A DNA stretch of 51,558 bases from an uncultured Pseudomonadales bacterium (GTDB lineage: Bacteria > Patescibacteriota > Microgenomatia > UBA1400 > CAYXSR01): the NCBI GenBank assembly GCA_964430265.1, contig CAYSEI010000002.1, positions 207,209 to 258,766 of the forward strand, read 5' to 3'. The notes below the pieces were generated by a model, which was not told where the DNA came from, did no database searches, and was given only the letters and a program-made list of their open reading frames with translations. This document shows, piece after piece, positions 30,478 to 48,147 of this stretch; within the stretch, counting starts at the first letter, position 1, and every line of letters starts with the position of its first letter. Both the position numbers and the translations under genes were made by a program.

Positions 30478-31623
30478 ATGTACTATTTAGACCCGTTATA
30501 CGGCCAACTTGATATTAGCAACCAAGAAGCTGATCTTTATAAAACAAAAGCCTTAACTAGGTTAAGGGATGTTTCTTTGTCCGCGGTCCCGCCTTTTACT
30601 TGGCCGGGAGGCAATATAGCTTCCCGTTTTGAACATTCAGTTGGTGTTGCGTATCTAGCAAAAATCCTCACTAAGAAAAAGGATTTTGAAGAAATTAAAG
30701 ACAATTTGTCTTTAGCAGCGCTTTTTCATGATGTGGGCAGCCCGCCTTTTTCACATACTACAGAAGTATTCCAAACTGAAATAACCGGGAAAAACCACGA
30801 ACAATTTGTAGAAGAAGTAATCAAAGAAAAAAATCTAAATAAGAAAATTAAAGAAATAGGCGGGGATCCGGAAACTGTCATTGCTTTAATTAATGGCGAA
30901 CATTCTCCTTGGGGAGATTTGATCAACGGTTCAATAGATCTTGATAACTTAGACAATACTTTAAGATGGGGAATGGGTGCGGGAGTATTCCAAAGCAAAA
31001 TGTATTCTCCCGAAGAAATATTAAATGCCTTTGTTTTCCGCAACAGTCATCTTGCATTAAAAATTGAATATCAGGCTAATATACAAAAATGGGAGTTGGC
31101 AAGACGTTTGGCATATGAACTAGTTTATTCAGATACTAATCTGGCACCGGGATCAATGCTTTTTAGGGCTTTATACTTTGCTTTTTTAAATGACGAAATA
31201 GATGTGGGGTATTTTTACAGAACTGACTCACAAGCATTCTATTTATTGGAAAACAAGTTTAACAAAACAACCCAGAATCTGGCGCAGGCTGCCCGTTCCT
31301 GGCATTTTTATAAATGTGCTGCACAGATATTGGAAAAAGAACCAAATAAAAAAGCAAAGGAAATCTGTTTATCCTGGAAAAAAAGAATGCAGCTTGCTGA
31401 CACGATTGCAAAAGAACTAGATGTTAACAAAGAACAGGTGACAGTATATGCGGGCAAAGACAAAGGATTTAAAAAGATACACTTGCCCTTTGTAGGTGAA
31501 GGTGAAAAACAATACCATATGCCAATAATTCCTTTAAAGTGGAGGATAAAAGTGTATCTGCATCCCGAAATATTAGATAAAAAAGAAGAAACCAAGCATA
31601 TATTAAAAGAAATTTTAGGGTAA
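30478..31623 (+). CDS. HD-domain phosphohydrolase (SAMHD1/dNTPase-like)
   Basis: DPLYG, RL, SRFEHSVG, HDVG..PFSH, DLDNLD. Confidence 0.85.
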   Translation: MYYLDPLYGQLDISNQEADLYKTKALTRLRDVSLSAVPPFTWPGGNIASRFEHSVGVAYLAKILTKKKDFEEIKDNLSLAALFHDVGSPPFSHTTEVFQTEITGKNHEQFVEEVIKEKNLNKKIKEIGGDPETVIALINGEHSPWGDLINGSIDLDNLDNTLRWGMGAGVFQSKMYSPEEILNAFVFRNSHLALKIEYQANIQKWELARRLAYELVYSDTNLAPGSMLFRALYFAFLNDEIDVGYFYRTDSQAFYLLENKFNKTTQNLAQAARSWHFYKCAAQILEKEPNKKAKEICLSWKKRMQLADTIAKELDVNKEQVTVYAGKDKGFKKIHLPFVGEGEKQYHMPIIPLKWRIKVYLHPEILDKKEETKHILKEILG

Positions 31624-31690
31624 TAAGTACAAAATTGGGCTATATAACACAAAAATAGATACTAATTTGCTGTTTTTTAATAACTAAACA

Positions 31691-31719
31691 TTGACGCTTA
31701 GCACTCATTATGATATAGT
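31691..31719 (+). promoter_or_regulatory. sigma70-type promoter of lon
   Basis: TTGACG (31691-31696), 17 nt, TATAGT (31714-31719) with TG extension. Confidence 0.8.
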
Positions 31720-31724
31720 GCTAA
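31698..31724. promoter_or_regulatory. CIRCE element (HrcA operator)
   Basis: TTAGCACTC-N9-TAGTGCTAA, one mismatch to the consensus TTAGCACTC-N9-GAGTGCTAA. Confidence 0.9.
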
Positions 31725-31734
31725 TTGTAGAAAT

Positions 31735-34110
31735 ATGACACCAATAATTAAAAATGTAAACCAGAGTGAGGAAAGGAAAAGCGCACCACTAATCCCTTTG
31801 CGGACCGGTACAGTTTTTCCTCATACAGAAACAGTGCTTTCATTCGGCAGACAAAAATCACTAAAAGCAATTGAAGCCGCATTTGAAGGTGACCGTAAGA
31901 TTGTGTTATCTGCACAAAAAGATCCTCAGGTTGATGATCCCCAAAAAAACGATATTTATCAAACCGGAACAATTGGCCATATTGAAAGACTTTTAAAAAC
32001 AGACGGTGAAGTAAATGCTTTGGTAAAAGGTGAAAAAAGAATTTCCATAACTGGATACACACAAAAAAAACCGTATTTTGTGACTTCATATGAGGATGTT
32101 GATGAAATAAAGCCGCCGGAAAATGAGGAAGTCAAAGTTTTAACTAAGCACCTAACCAAGCAACTGAAAAAAGCTGTCAAGCTAGGTAAGTCAGTAGACT
32201 TTTTAATTTTTATGCGTTTAATGTCTGGTGTGGAACCGTCTGAATTGACAGATCAAATCAGTGCGCTTTTAGATCTTAAACCTGAAGAGCAGCAAGATCT
32301 TCTGGAAACAATAGATGTACAAAGAAGAATGGAAAAGCTGGCGGAATATTTTTCCCAGGAAATAAAGGTTTTGGAAATTGAAAAATCAATTGATACTAAA
32401 ACGCAGCAGAAATTTAACAAATCAATGCGTAAAACTGTTTTAAAAGAACGCTTGAAAACTATTCAGGAAGAGTTAGGAGAAAAAGGTGGAGATGATGAAA
32501 TTAAAGAGCTGAAAAAAAAGATAAAAAAAGCGCAGATGCCAAAAGAAGTGGAAGAAAAAGCTAAAAAAGAACTGGACAGATTATCAAAAATGCATGCATA
32601 TAACCCGGAAGCAGGATATATACGCACATATATTGAAACTTTAACTGATTTTCCTTGGAACAAAGAATCAGATAATAATGTATCTTTACAGGAGGCGGAA
32701 GAAGTTCTAAAAAAAGACCACTATGGGCTTAAAGAAGTAAAAGAAAGAATTTTAGAACACTTGGCGGTAATGAAATTAAAAGAAAAAAGAAATGATAAAA
32801 AAGATAAAAAGACTTCAAGTAAGGGAACAATAATCTGTTTTGTCGGGCCTCCAGGAGTAGGAAAAACTTCTATGGGGAGATCCATTGCCAGGGCTTTGGA
32901 CAGGAAGTTTATGAAAGTTTCTTTAGGCGGTATTAGGGACGAAGCAGAGATTAGAGGACACAGACGTACTTATGTAGGCGCAATGCCCGGAAGAGTTATT
33001 AGGGGAGTAATTGATGTGAAATCAAAAAATCCGGTGTTTATGCTGGATGAGATTGACAAAGTAGGCAAAGATTTCCGTGGTGATCCTTCAGCAGCACTTT
33101 TGGAGCTATTGGATCCGGAACAGAATAAAGAATTCTTTGACCACTATTTTGACGTTCCTGTTGATCTTTCTAATGTTTTGTTTATTACCACTGCCAATGT
33201 TTTGGATACTATTCCACCGGCATTAAAAGACCGTCTTGAAGTGATTAGATTTTCTGGATATACGGAAAATGAGAAGTACAAGATTGCCAAGCAGTTTTTA
33301 ATGGAAAAAGTGCTTAAGGCAAACGGACTTAAAAAAGAGGAAATTAATATTTCTCAGACAGTTATTAACCAAATTATAGATAAATATACGCGTGAAGCTG
33401 GAGTCAGGGAGCTGGAAAGAAAGCTTAGCAAGCTGGCGCGTAAAGTAGCAAAAAAAATAACGGAGGAAGAAGACAGAGAAAAAGAAGTACGTATTACCAC
33501 CAGAAATGTACAAAAATACCTTGGTCCGGAAAAATACAATAAAAGATTGGCTAAAGAAGAAAACGAAATTGGAGTTGCCACCGGAATGGCTTGGACGCAG
33601 GCAGGCGGAGAAATCCTATTTATTGAAACCGCTTTAATGCCTGGTAAAGGTAAGGTTATTCTTACAGGACAATTAGGTGATGTAATGAAAGAATCCTGCA
33701 AAGCAGCTATTTCATATGCACGCAGCAACTGGAAAGAACTGGGACTTGATAAAGATGTTACCAAAGAAATGGATGTACATGTACACGTACCTGAAGGTGC
33801 AGTTCCTAAAGACGGTCCTTCTGCAGGTATTACTATTGCGACGGCAATAATCTCTGCATTGACAAATAAGAAAGTAAAAAGAGATGTGGCAATGACCGGT
33901 GAAATAACATTAAGAGGTAAAGTTTTGGAAATAGGAGGCGTAAAAGAAAAAGTAATTGCTGCTCACAGGGCAGGTATTAAAAAAATCCTTTTACCCAAGG
34001 ACAATGAAAAAAATCTGGTAAAAGTTCCGGATGAGATAAAAGAAGATACTAAATTCGAGTTTGTGGAAAACCTGGAACAAGTACTGGAAAAAACGTTGGT
34101 AAAAAATTAA
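31735..34110 (+). CDS. lon: ATP-dependent protease La (LonA)
   Basis: Lon N-domain, [29 protein letters not shown] catalytic Ser, IGGVKEK. Confidence 0.98.
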
Positions 34111-42165: not shown

Positions 42166-43098
42166 ATGAATAAAAATAAATATGGTTTCGTTTTTACTTC
42201 AGTAACTTTTTTAGTTGGTATAGCGGTTTTAATTTTGGGTTCTGCTGCAGTTGGAGTATACATTTCTCAGAAAAAACAGCCACAAAAAAAGATATTTAAA
42301 TCCAAGCAAAAAAAGTCATATTGGCAAAGTAGTATCTGGATTGACGTTCCAGCACGAAAGTTAAAAGTTAAAATAGATGACAAAGTTAATATTGAAGGCC
42401 ATATTACCAATGATAAAAACATTAAGTCTGTTTTAATCAGTGTTGATGACCAAAAACAAGCAGACATTCAGGATTTTAAACAAAGCGGACAGTTAAAATA
42501 TTTTAATTATCAATGGAAAGCGGATTTATCCGGAGAAAAAAAATTAAAAGCAACAGCTTTAGGAGAGGACCAATCAGAAATTGCTACTGATTGGGTGATA
42601 ATTGAAGTAGAAGAGGAGGTTAATTCACCAAGTCCTAGTCCAGTTAGACAAACAGCTAGCCCAGAACCTGAACCAGAATCTGAACCAACACCAGAGCCAG
42701 ATTCAAGTTCAGAATCTATAAAACCAACACCAGAGCCAACTCCTCAACCCACTCCTCGTCCAACTCCTTCGCCTGAAGATAATTCTGCACCTTCAGCACC
42801 AACTCTTAAATATCCTATTGGAGGAACAACAATTGACTGCACAGCACGTGTTGATTTAGATTGGAATGCTATAAGTGATCCGAGTGGAATAGAAAACTAT
42901 ACAGTTGAAGTGCAGTGGCATTTTGGAGACGAAAACTGGCAGTCAGCGTCTGGAAGTCCTTTTACAATAACAAATACGCAATTGGAAATAGATACAGAAT
43001 GTGCCCTCTATTACCGCTGGCGTGTAAAAGCAAAAGATAATGCCGGAAACAGTAGTAATTATTCCAGCTGGGAAGAATTTCAAGTAAATTTAATGTAA
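42166..43098 (+). CDS. membrane-anchored protein: Ig-like domain, Pro/Thr linker, FN3-like domain
   Basis: TM, beta-rich domain, PEPTP repeats, D..APSAP.L..P, D.SGI..Y, YYRWRVKAKDNAGN. Confidence 0.8.
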   Translation: MNKNKYGFVFTSVTFLVGIAVLILGSAAVGVYISQKKQPQKKIFKSKQKKSYWQSSIWIDVPARKLKVKIDDKVNIEGHITNDKNIKSVLISVDDQKQADIQDFKQSGQLKYFNYQWKADLSGEKKLKATALGEDQSEIATDWVIIEVEEEVNSPSPSPVRQTASPEPEPESEPTPEPDSSSESIKPTPEPTPQPTPRPTPSPEDNSAPSAPTLKYPIGGTTIDCTARVDLDWNAISDPSGIENYTVEVQWHFGDENWQSASGSPFTITNTQLEIDTECALYYRWRVKAKDNAGNSSNYSSWEEFQVNLM

Positions 43099-43102
43099 AT
43101 AT

Positions 43103-46100
43103 ATGAATGATATAAAAAAAGAAAACAAAAGATTAAAGATTGCTGTTCTAATTTTAGCTCTGATTATTTTTACTGGATTAATCAGTATATTTTTGTTTTC
43201 AAGAAAGAACAAAAAAGAAGAACTTAATCAGCGTCCTCTAGTTTTAATAACTCAGCCGAAAAACAAACGCGCTTATAAAAAAAACGATCTTATAACTATT
43301 AATAGTAAAGCTTTTTCTGAACAAGGAATAAAAAGCTTGCAAGTCTTCTTAAATGGAAACTCTATTAAGAAAACAAACCTCAAAGAAAAAAATCTCAAGG
43401 ATATTAAAATTACAGTCAATTGGTTAGCAGAAGCAACTGGTGTATATGAGCTGATAGTAGAAGCAGAATCTAAAAACAATGAAAAAGGGCAGAGTTCTTT
43501 GGTTTTTCTTGTCGAAGAGGAAAAAACAACAGTTGAAGAGGATAAAACAGTTGAGGAAAGCTTGCAAACTGAAACAAATCTACAAGAAAGAGATGAAAAT
43601 ACAACAAAAGAAGAGGAAACAGGACAAGAAGAGACAATAGATGATACAGGGGAACCGGAGGAATCTGAAATAACAGAAGAAACAGAGGAAACAGTAGAAG
43701 AAGGCATAAGAGTACCGGAATACAGTATTCCTCTTCCTCACAATCAATTTAGTTTAGCAGAAACTTTAGGCTCATTTTTCAGTGATGAGGAAGCTCCAGC
43801 TTCAGAAACTGAAGCAGAAAACCGTTTGCGTATTGAGTTGGTTGGACTTAAAACTGAATCAGAATATGATTCTACCCACTGCTATATCGGACTGGGTGAA
43901 AACTCGCCGCAGTGGTATCCGGATATTGATTCAGACCAATCAACTGATGAATATTTTGAAAGTGCCGGCGGAACCGAATGGAATATTGCTGATTACCTTT
44001 CAGGAAGCAGTAGTTTGGAAACAGTTTGGACTGAAGATAGAGATTTTCCAATAGAAATTAATTGTGTTGCAATAACTAATGAAGGAACGGAAGCAGTTAA
44101 TTTAGGGAATATTACACTTAGTATACCTGCGAGTGATTGGGATGGTAGTTTAAGGCAAGCAGTTGGCAAAGAAGGAGAAAGTGTTTTTACACTTGACTAT
44201 ATTATTGGAGATCCAGATGAGAGGGAAGTTCCGGGAATTCCTTTGTATCTTGACCCAACGATGACCCCGCCTACCAATCTGCATTATGATCAGCGGCGGC
44301 AAGAGCTGCAATGGGAATATAATCCAGCTGAAGATGAACCAAGTATTAATGGGTTTGCGGTCTATTTAAACAATACCTTGCAGTGGACAGTTAGACCAAA
44401 TAGACAATACAGCCGTTTGCCTCTGCAATGGCTAAAACCTCCGTGTGGAGTTGATTACTCTTTTACAGTTACTGCTTTTCGTGGCAATCTACCTGATGGC
44501 CCAGAATCAACAGCAACAATACCTGGATATGTAGTTGAAGGAGGAGAAGTTGGTACTCAAGACTGTAATAAAGAAGTAATAGTTACTTTTAAAAATATGC
44601 AGACAGGCGATTTAGGGAATGATGGAAACAGAGATCCCGGAGATGCTGGTCCGATCATTGGAACTTTTTATGCCAATGACCGTCTGCTTTCTCTTGACGG
44701 CAGGTGTAATGACAGACGTGACAATTTTTGTTCTGAAAGAGGATGGAATAATAACAGCACTTATCAAATAATGGATCTTTTGAATAATTATGGAACTGGT
44801 CCGAATGCACATTCCAACCAAGTATTAGTGACTATTCCAGAAGGAGAAGATCTTTGGATAGGTTATGAAATCATTGATTATGACAGGCGCAATAGTAATG
44901 ATTTAGTTTGTAGTGCTGAAACTTGGGTGCAAAGTAATCAGCTTGATAATGTACATGAAAAAACAGTTACTTCAGAACGTTCCCGCTGCAGAATGGAAGT
45001 TGATATCCGCCCCGGAGGCGGAAGCCCGATTGGAAGTAGAGAGGATTGGACTCCTTTACCACAGTTATGGGTTTCTGATTTAACAGTCGATGATGAAACT
45101 GGACAGTTGGAAGTACATGTTAAAAATATTGGCACAGCCTCAGTTGCGTCGCAGAATATTAAACTTGGGTTTACGCGCAGAAATGGAACAGCTTATGATA
45201 CCAATTCTTTGATTTGGCAGGGTTTAACTTTGGAGCCTGGGGAAGAAAAGGTTTTTACTAATCCCATAATCCGGCCAAGACCGGCATTAAGCGTTTGTGT
45301 ACAGCTTGATCCTGATAATCAGTTTCATGAAGCTTTTGAAGAAAGCCAAGCTATAGAAAGGCAAATATTTTGTAAAGACTTAGCTGATTTAATAATTACT
45401 GACAGCTCGTATAATTCGGAAAGAAATAGCTTGCATATTACTGTACAAAATCAAGGTGAGGGAATTTTAGACAACCGTGTTGTGAATTTAAGAGGTTCAA
45501 TTCCGTTTCGGTCAGATTATCTATTTGATAAAAACTGGCATTTTTCTTTAGAACCAGGAGAAAGCAAGGTTTTATCCTGGACAGACGTAAGTGAAGAAGC
45601 CCGCGATTCAATGGAACTAAGAGGATACAATCTTGAATTAGATCCTCTTAACAGAATTGCAGAAACAAATGAAGATAATAATCAGTATCAAGTTAATGGT
45701 AGAAAGAGAGTTAAAGTGAGATGGATTAAAGCTTGCTTCCCGTATTTTGTTGCAGGACGAAATAACCATGCCAATATTAGCTTAAACGTAGAAAAAGTTG
45801 CAAGACATACAGAAGAACAGATTGTCAATTGGTCAACTGGAGAAATGACTTTGCATGAATGGACTGAAGGGGGTTACCGTAACACTCTGGACTCAACAAA
45901 ATGCTGGAGAAGAGAATATCCAACAAATCCCAGTGAAAGGACTACTGATTACATTAGTATTACCGGAGACGAACGTTTAAAAATATCAGCGGGAGGAAGT
46001 GCTAGGGTTGGAACCCGCGACTATAATCTCTATGATATCACAGAGAATTTTAATGTGGCAAGGGGCTTGGAAGAAACCTTTATTCCTGGTTTGGTGGAAG

Positions 46101-46225
46101 ATACAAATATTTGTGGTGGCATGGAAACCTATTATTACAATTGGGCCTCAACAGCATCTGTTCCCTTAGAAGATAACACAGGATACAGATGGACGACTAG
46201 TTTTGTAATTTGTGTTGAAGAATAA
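43103..46225 (+). CDS. 1040-aa membrane-anchored surface protein with Ig-like, FN3-like and two CARDB-like domains
   Basis: TM, Glu/Thr linker, PPTNL...Y.F.VTA, V.N.G...LEPGE...LDP.N...E. Confidence 0.8.
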   Translation: MNDIKKENKRLKIAVLILALIIFTGLISIFLFSRKNKKEELNQRPLVLITQPKNKRAYKKNDLITINSKAFSEQGIKSLQVFLNGNSIKKTNLKEKNLKDIKITVNWLAEATGVYELIVEAESKNNEKGQSSLVFLVEEEKTTVEEDKTVEESLQTETNLQERDENTTKEEETGQEETIDDTGEPEESEITEETEETVEEGIRVPEYSIPLPHNQFSLAETLGSFFSDEEAPASETEAENRLRIELVGLKTESEYDSTHCYIGLGENSPQWYPDIDSDQSTDEYFESAGGTEWNIADYLSGSSSLETVWTEDRDFPIEINCVAITNEGTEAVNLGNITLSIPASDWDGSLRQAVGKEGESVFTLDYIIGDPDEREVPGIPLYLDPTMTPPTNLHYDQRRQELQWEYNPAEDEPSINGFAVYLNNTLQWTVRPNRQYSRLPLQWLKPPCGVDYSFTVTAFRGNLPDGPESTATIPGYVVEGGEVGTQDCNKEVIVTFKNMQTGDLGNDGNRDPGDAGPIIGTFYANDRLLSLDGRCNDRRDNFCSERGWNNNSTYQIMDLLNNYGTGPNAHSNQVLVTIPEGEDLWIGYEIIDYDRRNSNDLVCSAETWVQSNQLDNVHEKTVTSERSRCRMEVDIRPGGGSPIGSREDWTPLPQLWVSDLTVDDETGQLEVHVKNIGTASVASQNIKLGFTRRNGTAYDTNSLIWQGLTLEPGEEKVFTNPIIRPRPALSVCVQLDPDNQFHEAFEESQAIERQIFCKDLADLIITDSSYNSERNSLHITVQNQGEGILDNRVVNLRGSIPFRSDYLFDKNWHFSLEPGESKVLSWTDVSEEARDSMELRGYNLELDPLNRIAETNEDNNQYQVNGRKRVKVRWIKACFPYFVAGRNNHANISLNVEKVARHTEEQIVNWSTGEMTLHEWTEGGYRNTLDSTKCWRREYPTNPSERTTDYISITGDERLKISAGGSARVGTRDYNLYDITENFNVARGLEETFIPGLVEDTNICGGMETYYYNWASTASVPLEDNTGYRWTTSFVICVEE

Positions 46226-47072: not shown

Positions 47073-47116
47073 AAAAAAACCCGCTTGACTGCGCGATTGC
47101 AATCAGCGGGCTTTTT
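47073..47116 (-). terminator. intrinsic terminator (possibly bidirectional)
   Basis: Minus strand AAAAAG-CCCGCT-GATTGC-aatcgc-GCAGTC-a-AGCGGG-TTTTTTT. Confidence 0.85.
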
Positions 47117-47140
47117 ATCTTTACAATCCAAAATATTTTA

Positions 47141-47313
47141 GAAAAAGAGTCTATCCGACTTCTTGTTTCCGGACTCAAAATAATTGAACCCGGAAAAGAA
47201 AAGTCGGAAGTCAAAACCAAAAGGTTAAAAGCAAAATTGCCAAGCAATTATGGCAAAATAGCTGGAAACCTCTATAGTTTCAACTTGACTCTTCTTCCGT
47301 CCCTAAGGACGGA
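47141..47313 (-). ncRNA. candidate structured RNA domain (multi-stem 3' trailer), family unknown
   Basis: Closing stem 47141-47151/47287-47297 encloses hairpins 47154-47208, 47237-47256, 47260-47285; flanking 7-bp hairpin 47296-47313; mismatches read as G-U on the minus strand. Confidence 0.6.
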
Positions 47314-47694
47314 TTAATACTCATTGTTTTCTTTCTCTATATATTCCTCATATAGGGCTTTGTTCTCATTTCTGAGGTGCTCGATTCTTCTCTTGCTGTC
47401 CAAATGTATTAGCCAGACAACAATTGAAAATGCAATTGCAACGATTACTACAATCGTCACAAAGTTGTTAACAAACCACTTTCCAATCGTTAACAGCAGC
47501 ATTATGATAGATGCTGCAAAGATTGAAAAGATTACAAATCGAAAGAGCAAACCAAATACTCCCTCAATTTCATAAATTCTTGCTATGAGATCTGTTAGTC
47601 CTGTTCCTTCAGACAACCAGAACAAAACAAACAGAACAGTTGCTGCTGTACCTAGAATTCCAGGCACCTTATTTATCCATTCCTTGTTTCTCAT
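47314..47694 (-). CDS. small three-TM membrane protein with charged C-terminal helix
   Basis: GGAGG RBS at 47701-47705; ATGA overlap with the upstream gene. Confidence 0.75.
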   Translation of the reverse strand: MRNKEWINKVPGILGTAATVLFVLFWLSEGTGLTDLIARIYEIEGVFGLLFRFVIFSIFAASIIMLLLTIGKWFVNNFVTIVVIVAIAFSIVVWLIHLDSKRRIEHLRNENKALYEEYIEKENNEY

Positions 47695-47942
47695 TTCATT
47701 CCTCCAATTATGACAAATGCAGCGATTACCAAAAAAGAAATTAAAAAGACCCAGATTTCTCTGGTTTTAATTTCTTTTGGTGTGTTTAATAACCACAGAA
47801 CTGCGGTTATTAAAAGTGCGGCTAAAAAAACAATTGCTGCCGGTTCCCAGTACAAAGCGGGGAGCCAGTGTATGTACACTGAAATGCTGTCATATGCTAC
47901 TGCCAGAAGCAGTAAAAACAGCAGTCCGATAAGAATTCCCAT
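47691..47942 (-). CDS. small three-TM membrane protein
   Basis: AAGGAG RBS at 47951-47956, 8 nt spacing; three hydrophobic helices. Confidence 0.75.
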   Translation of the reverse strand: MGILIGLLFLLLLAVAYDSISVYIHWLPALYWEPAAIVFLAALLITAVLWLLNTPKEIKTREIWVFLISFLVIAAFVIIGGMK

Positions 47943-48055
47943 TTACTCTTCTCCTTATAGTATGATTGCTTATTACATTTTTTAATGAGTATATTTATCC
48001 AGCCAGCTATAGACAGAATAGCTTCTGCCCAGAACCGGCTGGATAATATTTTGGA

Positions 48056-48108
48056 TTGTTAAAGAACAAAGAATACTCCTATATTTAAAAGAAGAATAAA
48101 GGAGTATT
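48056..48108 (-). promoter_or_regulatory. hairpin followed by boxA-like antitermination motif
   Basis: Hairpin AATACTCCT/AGGAGTATT (48072-48108), then TGTTCTTTAACAA (48068-48056), resembling rrn boxA TGCTCTTTAACA. Confidence 0.6.
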
Positions 48109-48118
48109 AATTGGCGAT

Positions 48119-48147
48119 AGTATAGCAATTAGTTATAGGACAATCAA
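48119..48147 (-). promoter_or_regulatory. sigma70-type promoter
   Basis: TTGATT (48147-48142), 17 nt, TATACT (48124-48119) with TG extension. Confidence 0.8.

What the first reader, a model, noticed from the sequence alone, without database searches (positions are those of the whole stretch)
47073..48147. Self-contained RNA-structured unit: two small membrane-protein genes enclosed by an rRNA-like leader/trailer stalk
Seen on the minus strand, in order: promoter TTGATT-17-TATACT; 5' hairpin; boxA-like motif; arm 48065-48045; a ~22-bp hairpin (47996-48044); RBS; an 83-aa and a 126-aa three-TM ORF coupled by ATGA; a ~170-nt multi-stem domain; arm 47137-47118, complementary to the first arm over 20 bp; terminator. 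Imperfect pairs in the hairpins read as G-U on the minus strand, pointing to selection on RNA rather than DNA symmetry. Known parallels: rRNA precursors (boxB-boxA, leader/trailer stalk cut by RNase III) and type I toxin mRNAs (5'-3' long-distance pairing, small membrane toxins). Neither normally encloses two coupled three-TM genes. Inference: an undescribed processed, stabilised or possibly circularised mRNA/ncRNA system, or a structured-RNA plus membrane-protein module.
Basis: partly seen in the sequence, partly recalled or inferred. Interest (0 to 1): 0.88.

Follow-up and report, generated by a model that had tools for sequence, protein, structure and literature searches.

The report
Ribosomal-RNA-style stalk enclosing membrane-protein genes
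Two small membrane-protein genes of an ultra-small (CPR) bacterium sit inside an RNA wrapper built like the leader and trailer of ribosomal RNA, and the same wrapper recurs around other envelope-protein genes in this genome and related ones, pointing to an undescribed way of handling messenger RNA.

Summary
The described features are all present on the minus strand: promoter, 5' hairpin, BoxA-like motif, 19-bp leader/trailer stalk, 22-bp hairpin, two coupled three-TM ORFs, a 153-nt Y-shaped 3' domain and a terminator. Taken alone, the stalk is only borderline against chance. It is not alone. The same genome holds two more units with the same plan (hairpin, CTTTAACAA, 12-15-nt arm, 23-25-bp hairpin, coding sequence, complementary trailer arm, terminal hairpin) around other secreted or membrane proteins. 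A covariance model of the three leaders finds matches in 17 of 150 sampled genomes of the same order and 10 of the class outside the order. It finds none in 143 genomes of other classes of the phylum. The model knows nothing about trailers. Yet 11 of 28 such leaders have a perfect trailer complement of 13 nt or more just past their cargo, against 3 of 926 mismatched arm/locus pairs. Arms differ between loci but match their own trailers, which indicates RNA-level selection. The genome encodes NusB, RNase III and Rho. I read it as rRNA-style (BoxA plus leader-trailer helix) biogenesis applied to envelope-protein mRNAs. Transcripts, Nus binding and cleavage are untested.

The parts
48119..48147 (-). 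sigma-70-type promoter TTGATT-17-TATACT with TG extension
   Evidence: the sister loci have TTGACA-17-TATAAT (B) and TTGACA-17-TATTAT (C), read
48072..48108 (-). hairpin 1 at the 5' end of the transcript, in the boxB position of rRNA leaders
   Evidence: aligned with hairpins of loci B and C by models R2/R3
48056..48068 (-). BoxA-like motif TGTTCTTTAACAA; its core CTTTAACAA is shared with loci B and C
   Evidence: matches the published consensus GYTCTTTAANA (PMC5725501, passages seen) at 11 of 11 positions
48046..48065 (-). 5' arm of the leader-trailer stalk; overlaps the 3' part of the motif
47996..48045 (-). hairpin 2, 22 bp with 4 G-U, directly abutting the 5' arm
   Evidence: (one of the 8 longest hairpins in the genome)
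47984..47992 (-). 5' strand of a predicted second (inner) long-range helix, pairing with 47325-47317
   Evidence: MFE only; locus B has an analogous 8-bp helix
47951..47956 (-). Shine-Dalgarno AAGGAG of ORF1
47691..47942 (-). ORF1, 83 aa, three hydrophobic segments, orphan
47314..47694 (-). ORF2, 126 aa, three hydrophobic segments plus charged C-terminal tail; start overlaps the ORF1 stop (ATGA)
47296..47313 (-). 7-bp hairpin directly after the ORF2 stop codon
47143..47295 (-). Y-shaped 3' domain: closing stem plus two long hairpins, 8 G-U pairs
   Evidence: its intergenic region ranks 1 of 183 by folding energy per nt
47118..47136 (-). 3' arm of the leader-trailer stalk
47073..47116 (-). terminal hairpin with T-run (intrinsic terminator), one base after the 3' arm

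Best explanation
The region is one transcription unit for two translationally coupled, lineage-restricted three-TM membrane proteins. Its mRNA carries the architecture of a ribosomal RNA precursor: a 5' hairpin, a BoxA-like motif, a 5' arm, a long hairpin, then the coding region, a structured 3' part, a complementary 3' arm and a terminal hairpin.

It is one of three such units in this genome. It belongs to a class of leaders found in other genomes of the same CPR class (the Microgenomates group, judging from uvrB relatives), mostly in front of secreted or membrane proteins.

Inferred mechanism, by analogy with the rRNA antitermination complex:
1. NusB/S10 binds the BoxA-like motif on the nascent RNA and keeps the adjacent 5' arm at the polymerase.
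2. The coding region loops out.
3. When the trailer emerges, the leader-trailer helix forms.

The helix is stacked between hairpin 2 and the terminal hairpin. It either is cut by RNase III, leaving an mRNA capped by hairpin 2 and the 3' domain, or closes the mRNA into a nuclease-protected loop. The Nus-modified polymerase would also resist Rho.

Shown: the anatomy, the recurrence, the arm/trailer covariation, and the presence of nusB, rnc and rho. Inferred: Nus binding, cleavage, stabilisation.
For: Recurrence in the same genome:
- Of 77 exact CTTTAACAA sites, 6 lie in crude intergenic space. Three of these (this locus A, C5:8880 = B, C1:40097 = C) share the plan hairpin, motif, arm, 23-25-bp hairpin.
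- Each arm has a perfect complement 0.85-1.1 kb downstream: 15, 14 and 13 nt. At random positions a complement of 13 nt or more occurs in 8 of 1263 cases.
- The stalks are in the MFE of all three transcripts, with pair probability about 1 in A and C.
- Four of the 8 longest hairpins in the genome belong to these three loci.

Model searches:
- A model built from B alone finds C at 41.7 bits and A at 27.8 bits, both full length.
- In the three-way alignment 94.9% of cells pair, and 33 of 42 pairs change on both sides. Partner-slid controls give 41-51% paired. That alignment is fitted to the structure.
- Model R3 hits only A, B and C in the own genome.
- R3 hits 17 of 150 other genomes of the order at E<=0.01.
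- R3 hits 10 genomes of the class outside the order at E<=0.001.
- R3 hits 0 of 143 genomes of other classes.

Trailers, which the model does not see:
- 11 of 28 examined leaders have a perfect trailer complement of 13 nt or more.
- Arms tested against other loci's downstream reach that in 3 of 926 cases.
- Trailers lie from about the stop codon (L148) to about 230 nt past the cargo ORFs.
- Arm sequences differ between loci.

Other support:
- Motif: 18 of 31 leaders carry exact CTTTAACAA. 11 of 31 match GYTCTTTAANA exactly, and most others differ at one position (consensus from PMC5725501).
- Cargo: 20 of 31 first ORFs have a strongly hydrophobic N-terminus, against 326 of 998 in the genome's crude ORF set.
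- The strand asymmetry of folding favours RNA on the coding strand.
- nusB and rnc are present and adjacent; rho is present.
- The genome's own 16S gene has a 29-bp leader-trailer helix that includes a related motif.
- The tethering model for boxA/boxC and the trailer is described in PMC10250234 (passages).
Against: - No transcript, end-mapping or binding data exist: no RNA run was listed.
- The stalk at this locus alone is within what intergenic pairs of this AT-rich genome give by chance.
- The BoxA consensus used comes from gamma-proteobacteria.
- The motif is not enriched genome-wide: GYTCTTTAANA has 23 matches, and its reversed control also 23. The 13-mer with up to 2 mismatches gives 225 against 225.
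- The genome's own rRNA leaders carry variants of the motif (GCTCGTTGACAA, TGCTCTTTGAAAA), and model R3 does not hit them.
- Once the stalk forms, most of the motif is double-stranded.
- 17 of 28 related leaders showed no perfect trailer complement of 13 nt or more.
- Several weak model hits sit before non-envelope genes.
- Only 3 sequences built the model, and related genomes are not independent.
- No DNA of the one close relative of the two ORFs could be obtained, so this locus's own ortholog could not be tested for covariation.
Confidence: 0.6

Rival explanations
1. BoxA-dependent repression rather than maturation. As at suhB or the lambda N leader, Nus factors bound at the motif form a loop to the polymerase that blocks ribosome access. 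The unit would then be a negatively regulated operon, with the stalk and hairpins only modulating this.
For: BoxA sites before protein genes are known to repress translation and promote Rho termination. The N leader combines a nut site with a highly structured RNase III-sensitive region (PMC5725501, abstract and passages). rho is present. In the isolated 5' UTR the MFE pairs a U-rich stretch of hairpin 1 with the SD.
Against: It does not explain why trailers complementary to the arm are conserved 0.4-3.4 kb downstream. The motif lies about 100 nt from the SD at this locus, beyond the 50 nt used in that study.
Confidence: 0.15
2. The Y-shaped 3' domain is a separate element: a small non-coding RNA, or a ligand- or protein-sensing attenuator in front of the downstream Amidase_3 gene. 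On this reading it only happens to lie between the ORFs and the 3' arm.
For: It is the most stable intergenic fold per nt in the genome (rank 1 of 183), with z -12.4. It is followed by a terminator and, 60 nt later, by the amidase gene on the same strand. Sister loci have much shorter 3' parts.
Against: There is no Rfam match. A model of the domain found no credible match in 150 genomes of the order: two weak hits, and the stronger one, the only one inspected, lies in an unrelated higher-GC context. No alternative antiterminator pairing was seen by reading the fold. The domain sits inside the stalk, as hairpin 2 does on the 5' side.
Confidence: 0.1
3. An ordinary orphan operon with stable UTR hairpins. 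The 5'-3' complementarity and the BoxA-like motif at this locus are coincidences of AT-rich intergenic sequence.
For: The single-locus statistics are weak. The motif is not enriched.
Against: Three loci in the genome share motif, arm position and hairpins, each with its own trailer. The trailer complement recurs in 11 of 28 model hits elsewhere against 3 of 926 in the control.
Confidence: 0.06
4. A DNA-level element: terminal inverted repeats of a non-autonomous mobile cassette, or an invertible segment that switches the two genes off.
For: A 27-nt imperfect inverted repeat flanks a 0.9-kb segment. The two ORFs are absent from all searched relatives, and gene order around uvrB is not conserved.
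Against: The arms differ completely between the three copies in one genome, which a shared transposase or invertase would not tolerate. Promoter and terminator lie outside the arms, no direct repeats flank them, and there is no transposase or recombinase inside. G-U pairs and the strand-asymmetric folding point to RNA. The unit is single-copy. The contigs laid showed one orientation only, at low depth.
Confidence: 0.04
5. A type I toxin-antitoxin-like module: a fold-back between the 5' and 3' ends keeps a membrane-toxin mRNA inert until it is processed, as in hok.
For: It has 5'-3' pairing and small hydrophobic proteins with coupled reading frames. ORF2 gives a sub-threshold Pfam hit to a membrane toxin family (PF07254, E 0.013, 16 bits against a cut-off of 27.3). 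hok regulation: PMC9841398 (search listing and abstract start only).
Against: The proteins are 83 and 126 aa with three TM segments each. Sister units carry secreted proteins of 100-800 aa, lipoprotein-like among them. No antisense RNA gene is evident, and there is no PADLOC or PHROG support.
Confidence: 0.05

Closest known systems
rRNA operon leader/trailer: boxB-boxA-boxC, the antitermination complex and the leader-trailer helix (PMC10250234, passages seen)
   Same: The order hairpin, BoxA-like motif, 5' strand of a long-range helix. A complementary trailer after the cargo. Helix sequence free to vary while pairing is kept. The genome encodes NusB and RNase III. Its own 16S gene shows the same layout.
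   Different: The cargo is protein-coding, mostly envelope proteins. The helix is 12-19 bp, not 25-40 bp. The arm abuts or overlaps the motif instead of lying 18-19 nt downstream. A 22-25-bp hairpin follows the arm, and a terminal hairpin follows the trailer arm.
BoxA sites before protein-coding genes: suhB and others (PMC5725501, abstract and passages)
   Same: A consensus BoxA in a 5' UTR of a non-rRNA gene. The paper predicts many gene functions under BoxA control.
   Different: That paper contains no mention of trailers (0 occurrences). Its sites lie within 50 nt of the start codon and act by repression. It covers gamma-proteobacteria only.
Lambda nutL-N leader (as described in passages of PMC5725501)
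   Same: A Nus-binding site, followed by a highly structured region sensitive to RNase III, upstream of the SD.
   Different: It is a phage system that needs the N protein. The order is boxA then boxB. No trailer pairing is described there.
5'/3'-UTR pairing in B. subtilis hbs mRNA (PMC5737220, abstract) and S. aureus icaR mRNA (PMC3868564, search listing and abstract start)
   Same: A long-range helix of about 14 bp between the two UTRs of one mRNA, affecting ribonuclease action.
   Different: Those are single genes with no BoxA and no conserved leader class. In icaR the pairing covers the SD, whereas here the stalk lies about 90 nt upstream of it.
hok/Sok-type fold-back of toxin mRNAs (PMC9841398, search listing only; details recalled)
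   Same: Pairing of the 5' and 3' ends of an mRNA for small hydrophobic proteins.
   Different: Here there is no antisense RNA, the proteins are larger and polytopic, and sister units carry ordinary secreted proteins.

Membership tests
rRNA-type antitermination leader with leader-trailer helix | BoxA sequence | tested here: met
   GTTCTTTAACA matches GYTCTTTAANA at 11 of 11 positions. 11 of 31 class members match exactly, and most others differ at one position. Caveats: the consensus is gamma-proteobacterial, and the motif is not enriched genome-wide.
rRNA-type antitermination leader with leader-trailer helix | Leader-trailer helix kept by compensatory change | tested here: met
   Arms differ between loci, yet each matches its own trailer: A, B and C and 11 of 28 related hits, against 3 of 926 cross pairings.
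rRNA-type antitermination leader with leader-trailer helix | Encloses an rRNA gene | tested here: not met
   The cargo is two protein-coding ORFs. rRNA genes lie elsewhere on contig C5.
rRNA-type antitermination leader with leader-trailer helix | NusB/NusE binding and RNase III cleavage | not testable with these tools
   Only the genes are shown to be present: nusB and rnc.
Type I toxin-antitoxin (hok-like) | Small single-TM toxin and a cis-encoded antisense RNA | tested here: not met
   The proteins are 83 and 126 aa with three hydrophobic segments each. No family support above threshold. An antisense RNA could not be tested.
Mobile element or invertible segment bounded by inverted repeats | The same terminal repeats in all copies, target-site duplication, a recombinase | tested here: not met
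   Arms differ among A, B and C. No flanking direct repeat was seen by reading. No transposase or recombinase lies in the unit.
Known RNA families (Rfam 15) | Match at gathering score | tested here: not met
   Only three tRNAs in the window. At E<=10 the region gives only chance-level hairpin matches.
Holin / phage lysis cassette (considered because an amidase follows) | Holin family match, phage context | tested here: not met
   No Pfam or PHROG holin match. The neighbours are housekeeping genes: uvrA, uvrB, uvrC, Lon, a tRNA synthetase.

The most novel reading that the evidence does not exclude
Microgenomates-group CPR bacteria may have co-opted the whole rRNA biogenesis route for a set of envelope-protein mRNAs. 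That route is BoxA-loaded Nus complex, co-transcriptional tethering of a leader arm, a leader-trailer helix and RNase III trimming. The result would be end-capped, possibly closed or circularised, long-lived messages. Such a general 'rRNA-style mRNA maturation' pathway is not described in any bacterium.
Probability: 0.35. Interest if true: 0.85.

Novelty: new variant of a known kind. Interest (0 to 1): 0.76.

Why it matters
BoxA, Nus factors and leader-trailer helices are treated as rRNA (and phage) devices. The known BoxA sites before protein genes act locally near the start codon.

Here the complete leader-plus-trailer design encloses protein-coding genes, and it recurs with covarying arms across a class of CPR bacteria. 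If confirmed, this would:
- extend the RNA-chaperone role of the antitermination complex to mRNAs;
- give a first post-transcriptional mechanism specific to these uncultured, ultra-small organisms;
- provide a compact, portable module (leader about 120 nt, trailer about 60 nt) for testing how long-range RNA helices are formed co-transcriptionally.

It also marks a set of otherwise anonymous envelope proteins as co-regulated.

Tried and rejected
- **Homologues of the two ORFs.** Each has one close relative (84% and 67% identity, each on a 5,948-nt contig), and ORF2 has one remote relative (267 aa, 37%). None was found in 40 relatives, in 285 other genomes of the order, in JGI metagenome contigs, in GTDB contigs, or in 80 uvrB loci.
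- **DNA search in 40 relatives.** Two short hits; the one inspected lies inside a 505-aa ORF and was rejected.
- **Sequencing runs.** No RNA holder was listed. One DNA run holds the stretch, identical and at low depth. Two other runs of the same study hold nothing, and no joints were seen.
- **Model R1 of the 3' Y-domain.** No credible match in 150 genomes.
- **Protein families.** Pfam, PHROGs, NCBIfam and PADLOC gave nothing above threshold for either ORF. The remote relative has a sub-threshold FtsL-like stretch. The protein atlas returned only unnamed clusters.
- **Complex prediction on ORF2 with ORF1.** No verdict.
- **Model R2 through the genome search.** It found only itself in the own genome. 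The same model with filters off found A and C.
- **MAFFT alignment of the three leaders.** Not structure-aware, so not used.
- **Synteny.** uvrB neighbours differ among relatives, so this was uninformative.
- **Scripts that timed out.** Searches were replaced by lighter versions.
- **The search of earlier findings.** Closed.
- **Literature.** Searches for BoxA in CPR, and for leader-trailer helices around protein-coding genes, found no such description in the held library. Supplements were not seen.
Full report
**Setting.** The window is part of contig C2 of a 1.05-Mb, 34% GC genome in 6 contigs. The closest uvrB relatives (53-68% identity) come mostly from records titled Microgenomates group, Shapirobacteria, Levybacteria or Amesbacteria. 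The organism is therefore most likely a Microgenomates-group CPR bacterium. The one DNA run holding the stretch is a microbial-mat metagenome. The neighbourhood is housekeeping: uvrB directly upstream and an Amidase_3 gene downstream, both on the same strand, with uvrA, uvrC, Lon and a class II tRNA synthetase nearby.

**The observation.**
- Promoter at 48147-48119.
- Hairpin 1 at 48108-48072.
- TGTTCTTTAACAA at 48068-48056.
- A stalk of 6+13 bp with one bulge, between 48065-48046 and 47136-47118.
- Hairpin 2 at 48045-47996, 22 bp with 4 G-U.
- SD, then ORF1 (83 aa) and ORF2 (126 aa) overlapping by ATGA.
- A small hairpin at the stop codon.
- A 153-nt Y-shaped domain at 47295-47143.
- A hairpin with a T-run at 47116-47073.

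Both ORFs have three hydrophobic segments. Each is conserved in length, at 67% and 84% identity, in one metagenomic relative, so they look like real genes.

**RNA rather than DNA symmetry.** The local helices hold 14 G-U pairs on the minus strand.
- The 3' region folds at -110.4 kcal/mol (z -12.4) on the minus strand, against -79.1 (z -7.9) on the plus strand.
- The 5' UTR folds at -52.3 (z -6.5), against -40.6 (z -3.7).
- The 3' intergenic region is the most stable per nucleotide of 183 intergenic regions in the genome. It achieves this at only 35% GC.
- The stalk is in the MFE of the full transcript, with pair probabilities near 1. It persists when the coding region is held single-stranded.

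**Is the stalk more than chance?** For this locus alone the answer is weak.
- A perfect run of 15 nt in this geometry occurs in 1 of 1500 random placements.
- However, the genome holds 35 perfect inverted repeats of 15 nt or more within 3 kb, against about 22 expected.
- The stalk's alignment score is reached by 29 of 1500 random pairs of intergenic regions and by 11 of 896 adjacent pair-strand comparisons.
- The motif is not enriched either. The 13-mer with up to 2 mismatches gives 225 hits against 225 for the reversed control. GYTCTTTAANA gives 23 against 23.

**The turning point: sister loci in the same genome.** The intergenic regions flanking a gene on contig C5 ranked 2nd and 13th in fold stability, and one holds one of the longest hairpins in the genome. 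Reading them showed the same plan:
- a TTGACA-17-TATAAT promoter;
- a hairpin;
- GCACTTTAACAA;
- a 14-nt arm;
- directly afterwards a 25-bp hairpin;
- SD and a 291-aa protein with an N-terminal TM;
- a structured 3' part;
- the perfect complement of the arm;
- a terminal hairpin.

A scan of all 77 exact CTTTAACAA sites found 6 in crude intergenic space. Three of them are this locus (A), the C5 locus (B) and a third on C1 (C). Locus C has the same layout around a 170-aa secreted protein and a 35-aa TM peptide.

The arms share no sequence beyond the AA/ACAA taken from the motif (ACAATCCAAAATATT, AGACGAGAGAGTAT, AACCCAAAGAAAC). Yet each has a perfect complement 0.85-1.1 kb downstream. Random positions reach 13 nt or more in 8 of 1263 cases. 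The stalks appear in the MFE of B and C as well, with probability about 1 in C. A and B also share a predicted second, inner long-range helix just inside hairpin 2 and just after the stop codon. Four of the 8 longest hairpins in the genome (23 pairs or more) belong to A, B and C.

**A conserved class.**
- A covariance model made from B alone recovers C (41.7 bits) and A (27.8 bits) full length and on the right strand.
- In the resulting alignment 94.9% of cells pair, and 33 of 42 pairs change on both sides. Partner-slid controls give 41-51% paired. This alignment is fitted to the structure and has only three rows.
- The three-sequence model R3 hits only A, B and C in the own genome.
- In a sample of 150 other genomes of the order, R3 hits 17 genomes with 19 matches at E<=0.01, the best at 64 bits.
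- In a class-wide sample it hits 10 genomes outside the order at E<=0.001.
- In a phylum-wide sample it hits none of 143 genomes from other classes. That result also serves as a specificity control.

I refetched 4 kb downstream for 28 matches. Two matches at contig ends were dropped: L123, and L159, which is only 567 nt long.

The model contains no trailer information. Even so, 11 of 28 leaders have a perfect complement of 13-18 nt to the arm downstream, and 12 of 28 reach 12 nt or more. Arms tested against the downstream regions of other loci reach 13 nt in 3 of 926 cases. The complements lie at about the stop codon (L148) or up to about 230 nt past it. One genome has two tandem units with identical leaders, each with its own trailer.

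Of all 31 leaders, 18 have exact CTTTAACAA and 11 match the published BoxA consensus GYTCTTTAANA exactly. Most others are GCACTTTAACA, one position off (consensus from PMC5725501, passages). The first long ORF has a strongly hydrophobic N-terminus in 20 of 31 cases, against 326 of 998 for the genome's crude ORF set. Related genomes are not independent, so these ratios overstate significance somewhat. Still, 17 of 28 leaders lacked a perfect complement of 13 nt or more, and some weak matches precede non-envelope genes.

**Comparison with the genome's own rRNA.** The 16S gene is flanked by a 29-bp leader-trailer helix (-59.6 kcal/mol). Its 5' strand begins with GCTCGTTGACAA, so there too the motif is part of the helix. 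The 23S leader carries TGCTCTTTGAAAA after a tRNA. The mRNA leaders thus imitate the rRNA layout, but they are a distinct sequence class, since R3 does not hit the rRNA leaders. The genome encodes NusB and RNase III, adjacent to each other, and Rho.

**Mechanism.** The model rests on the published model for rRNA. In that model boxA, bound by NusB/S10, anchors the leader strand at the RNA exit channel. The rRNA loops out, and the trailer pairs as it emerges (PMC10250234, passages).

I infer the same sequence of events here. The motif directly precedes the 5' arm. The helix, once formed, is sandwiched between hairpin 2 and the terminal hairpin and could stack into a long double-stranded rod. RNase III cutting in the stalk would leave an mRNA that starts at hairpin 2 and ends at the structured 3' part. 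Alternatively, the uncut helix closes the message. A Nus-modified polymerase would also be protected from Rho across the long untranslated leader. None of these steps is shown; they are analogy plus anatomy.

**Alternatives.**
- A repressive BoxA, as at suhB or the lambda N leader (PMC5725501), is possible for the 5' part. It does not explain the trailers.
- The Y-domain could be an independent RNA or an attenuator for the amidase gene. It has no match in Rfam or in relatives.
- Chance is disfavoured by the recurrence.
- DNA-level repeats are disfavoured because the arms differ between copies, the promoter lies outside them, and the G-U pattern is strand-specific.
- A hok-like toxin module is disfavoured by the cargo of the sister loci.

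**What is known.** Long-range 5'/3' UTR pairing is described for single mRNAs: hbs, 14 bp (PMC5737220, abstract) and icaR (PMC3868564, listing and abstract start). BoxA before protein genes is described in PMC5725501, but that paper does not contain the word trailer. My searches for BoxA in CPR, and for leader-trailer helices with protein-coding cargo, returned no such description. The library is incomplete and supplements were closed. I therefore rate this as a new variant of a known kind: known parts (BoxA, leader-trailer helix) in a new role and in a conserved, lineage-specific class.

**The proteins.** The two proteins remain orphans.
- No family reaches threshold.
- The atlas gives unnamed clusters.
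- A complex prediction gave no verdict.
- A remote 267-aa relative has a sub-threshold FtsL-like TM plus coiled-coil stretch, aligned to ORF2's third TM and charged tail. This is a lead only.

**Verdict.** The mechanism is inferred, and the function of the cargo is unknown.

Noticed in passing
G000:C5:7640-8975 (minus strand; held as L108): Sister unit B. It has a TTGACA-17-TATAAT promoter, a hairpin, GCACTTTAACAA, a 14-nt arm and a 25-bp hairpin. The cargo is a 291-aa protein with an N-terminal TM. A structured 3' part, the perfect trailer complement and a terminal hairpin follow. A second 8-bp GC-rich long-range helix lies next to the coding region.
   Followed up: yes
G000:C1:39942-41100 (plus strand; held as L109): Sister unit C. 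It has the same leader plan with a 25-bp hairpin. The cargo is a 170-aa secreted protein followed by a 35-aa hydrophobic peptide with its own SD. The stalk is 12-13 bp, with a further outer 6-bp helix.
   Followed up: yes
window 48089-48104 with 47945-47957: In the isolated 5' UTR, the MFE pairs a U-rich stretch inside hairpin 1 with the SD region (13 pairs, 3 G-U). The centroid keeps hairpin 1 instead. This may be an alternative fold controlling translation.
   Followed up: no
G000:C5:15541-19841 and 30478-31986: The 16S and 23S genes lie about 10 kb apart. The 23S match is in two pieces, and an ORF with an LLGDG-type motif sits beside it. From recall, this is the kind of rRNA insertion reported for CPR bacteria.
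   Followed up: no
G000:C1:195528-196200: The nusB and rnc (RNase III) genes lie next to each other on the same strand.
   Followed up: no
L160 and L161 (G346:C1:410249-418149): Two tandem units have identical leaders 3.6 kb apart. Each is followed by its own copy of the trailer arm, 14 and 16 nt perfect.
   Followed up: partly
window 42166-46225: Two large predicted surface proteins (310 and 1040 aa) with Big_7 and CARDB domains lie on the plus strand, converging on the amidase gene.
   Followed up: no
P0005 (267 aa, metagenomic): This is the only remote relative of ORF2 (37% identity over residues 1-97). It continues into a longer membrane protein. The stretch around its third TM gives a sub-threshold FtsL match (23.9 bits against a cut-off of 42.45).
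   Followed up: partly
G000:C3:123977-124471: A 495-nt structured intergenic region holds another match to GYTCTTTAANA, 411 nt before the next ORF. It was not hit by model R3.
   Followed up: no
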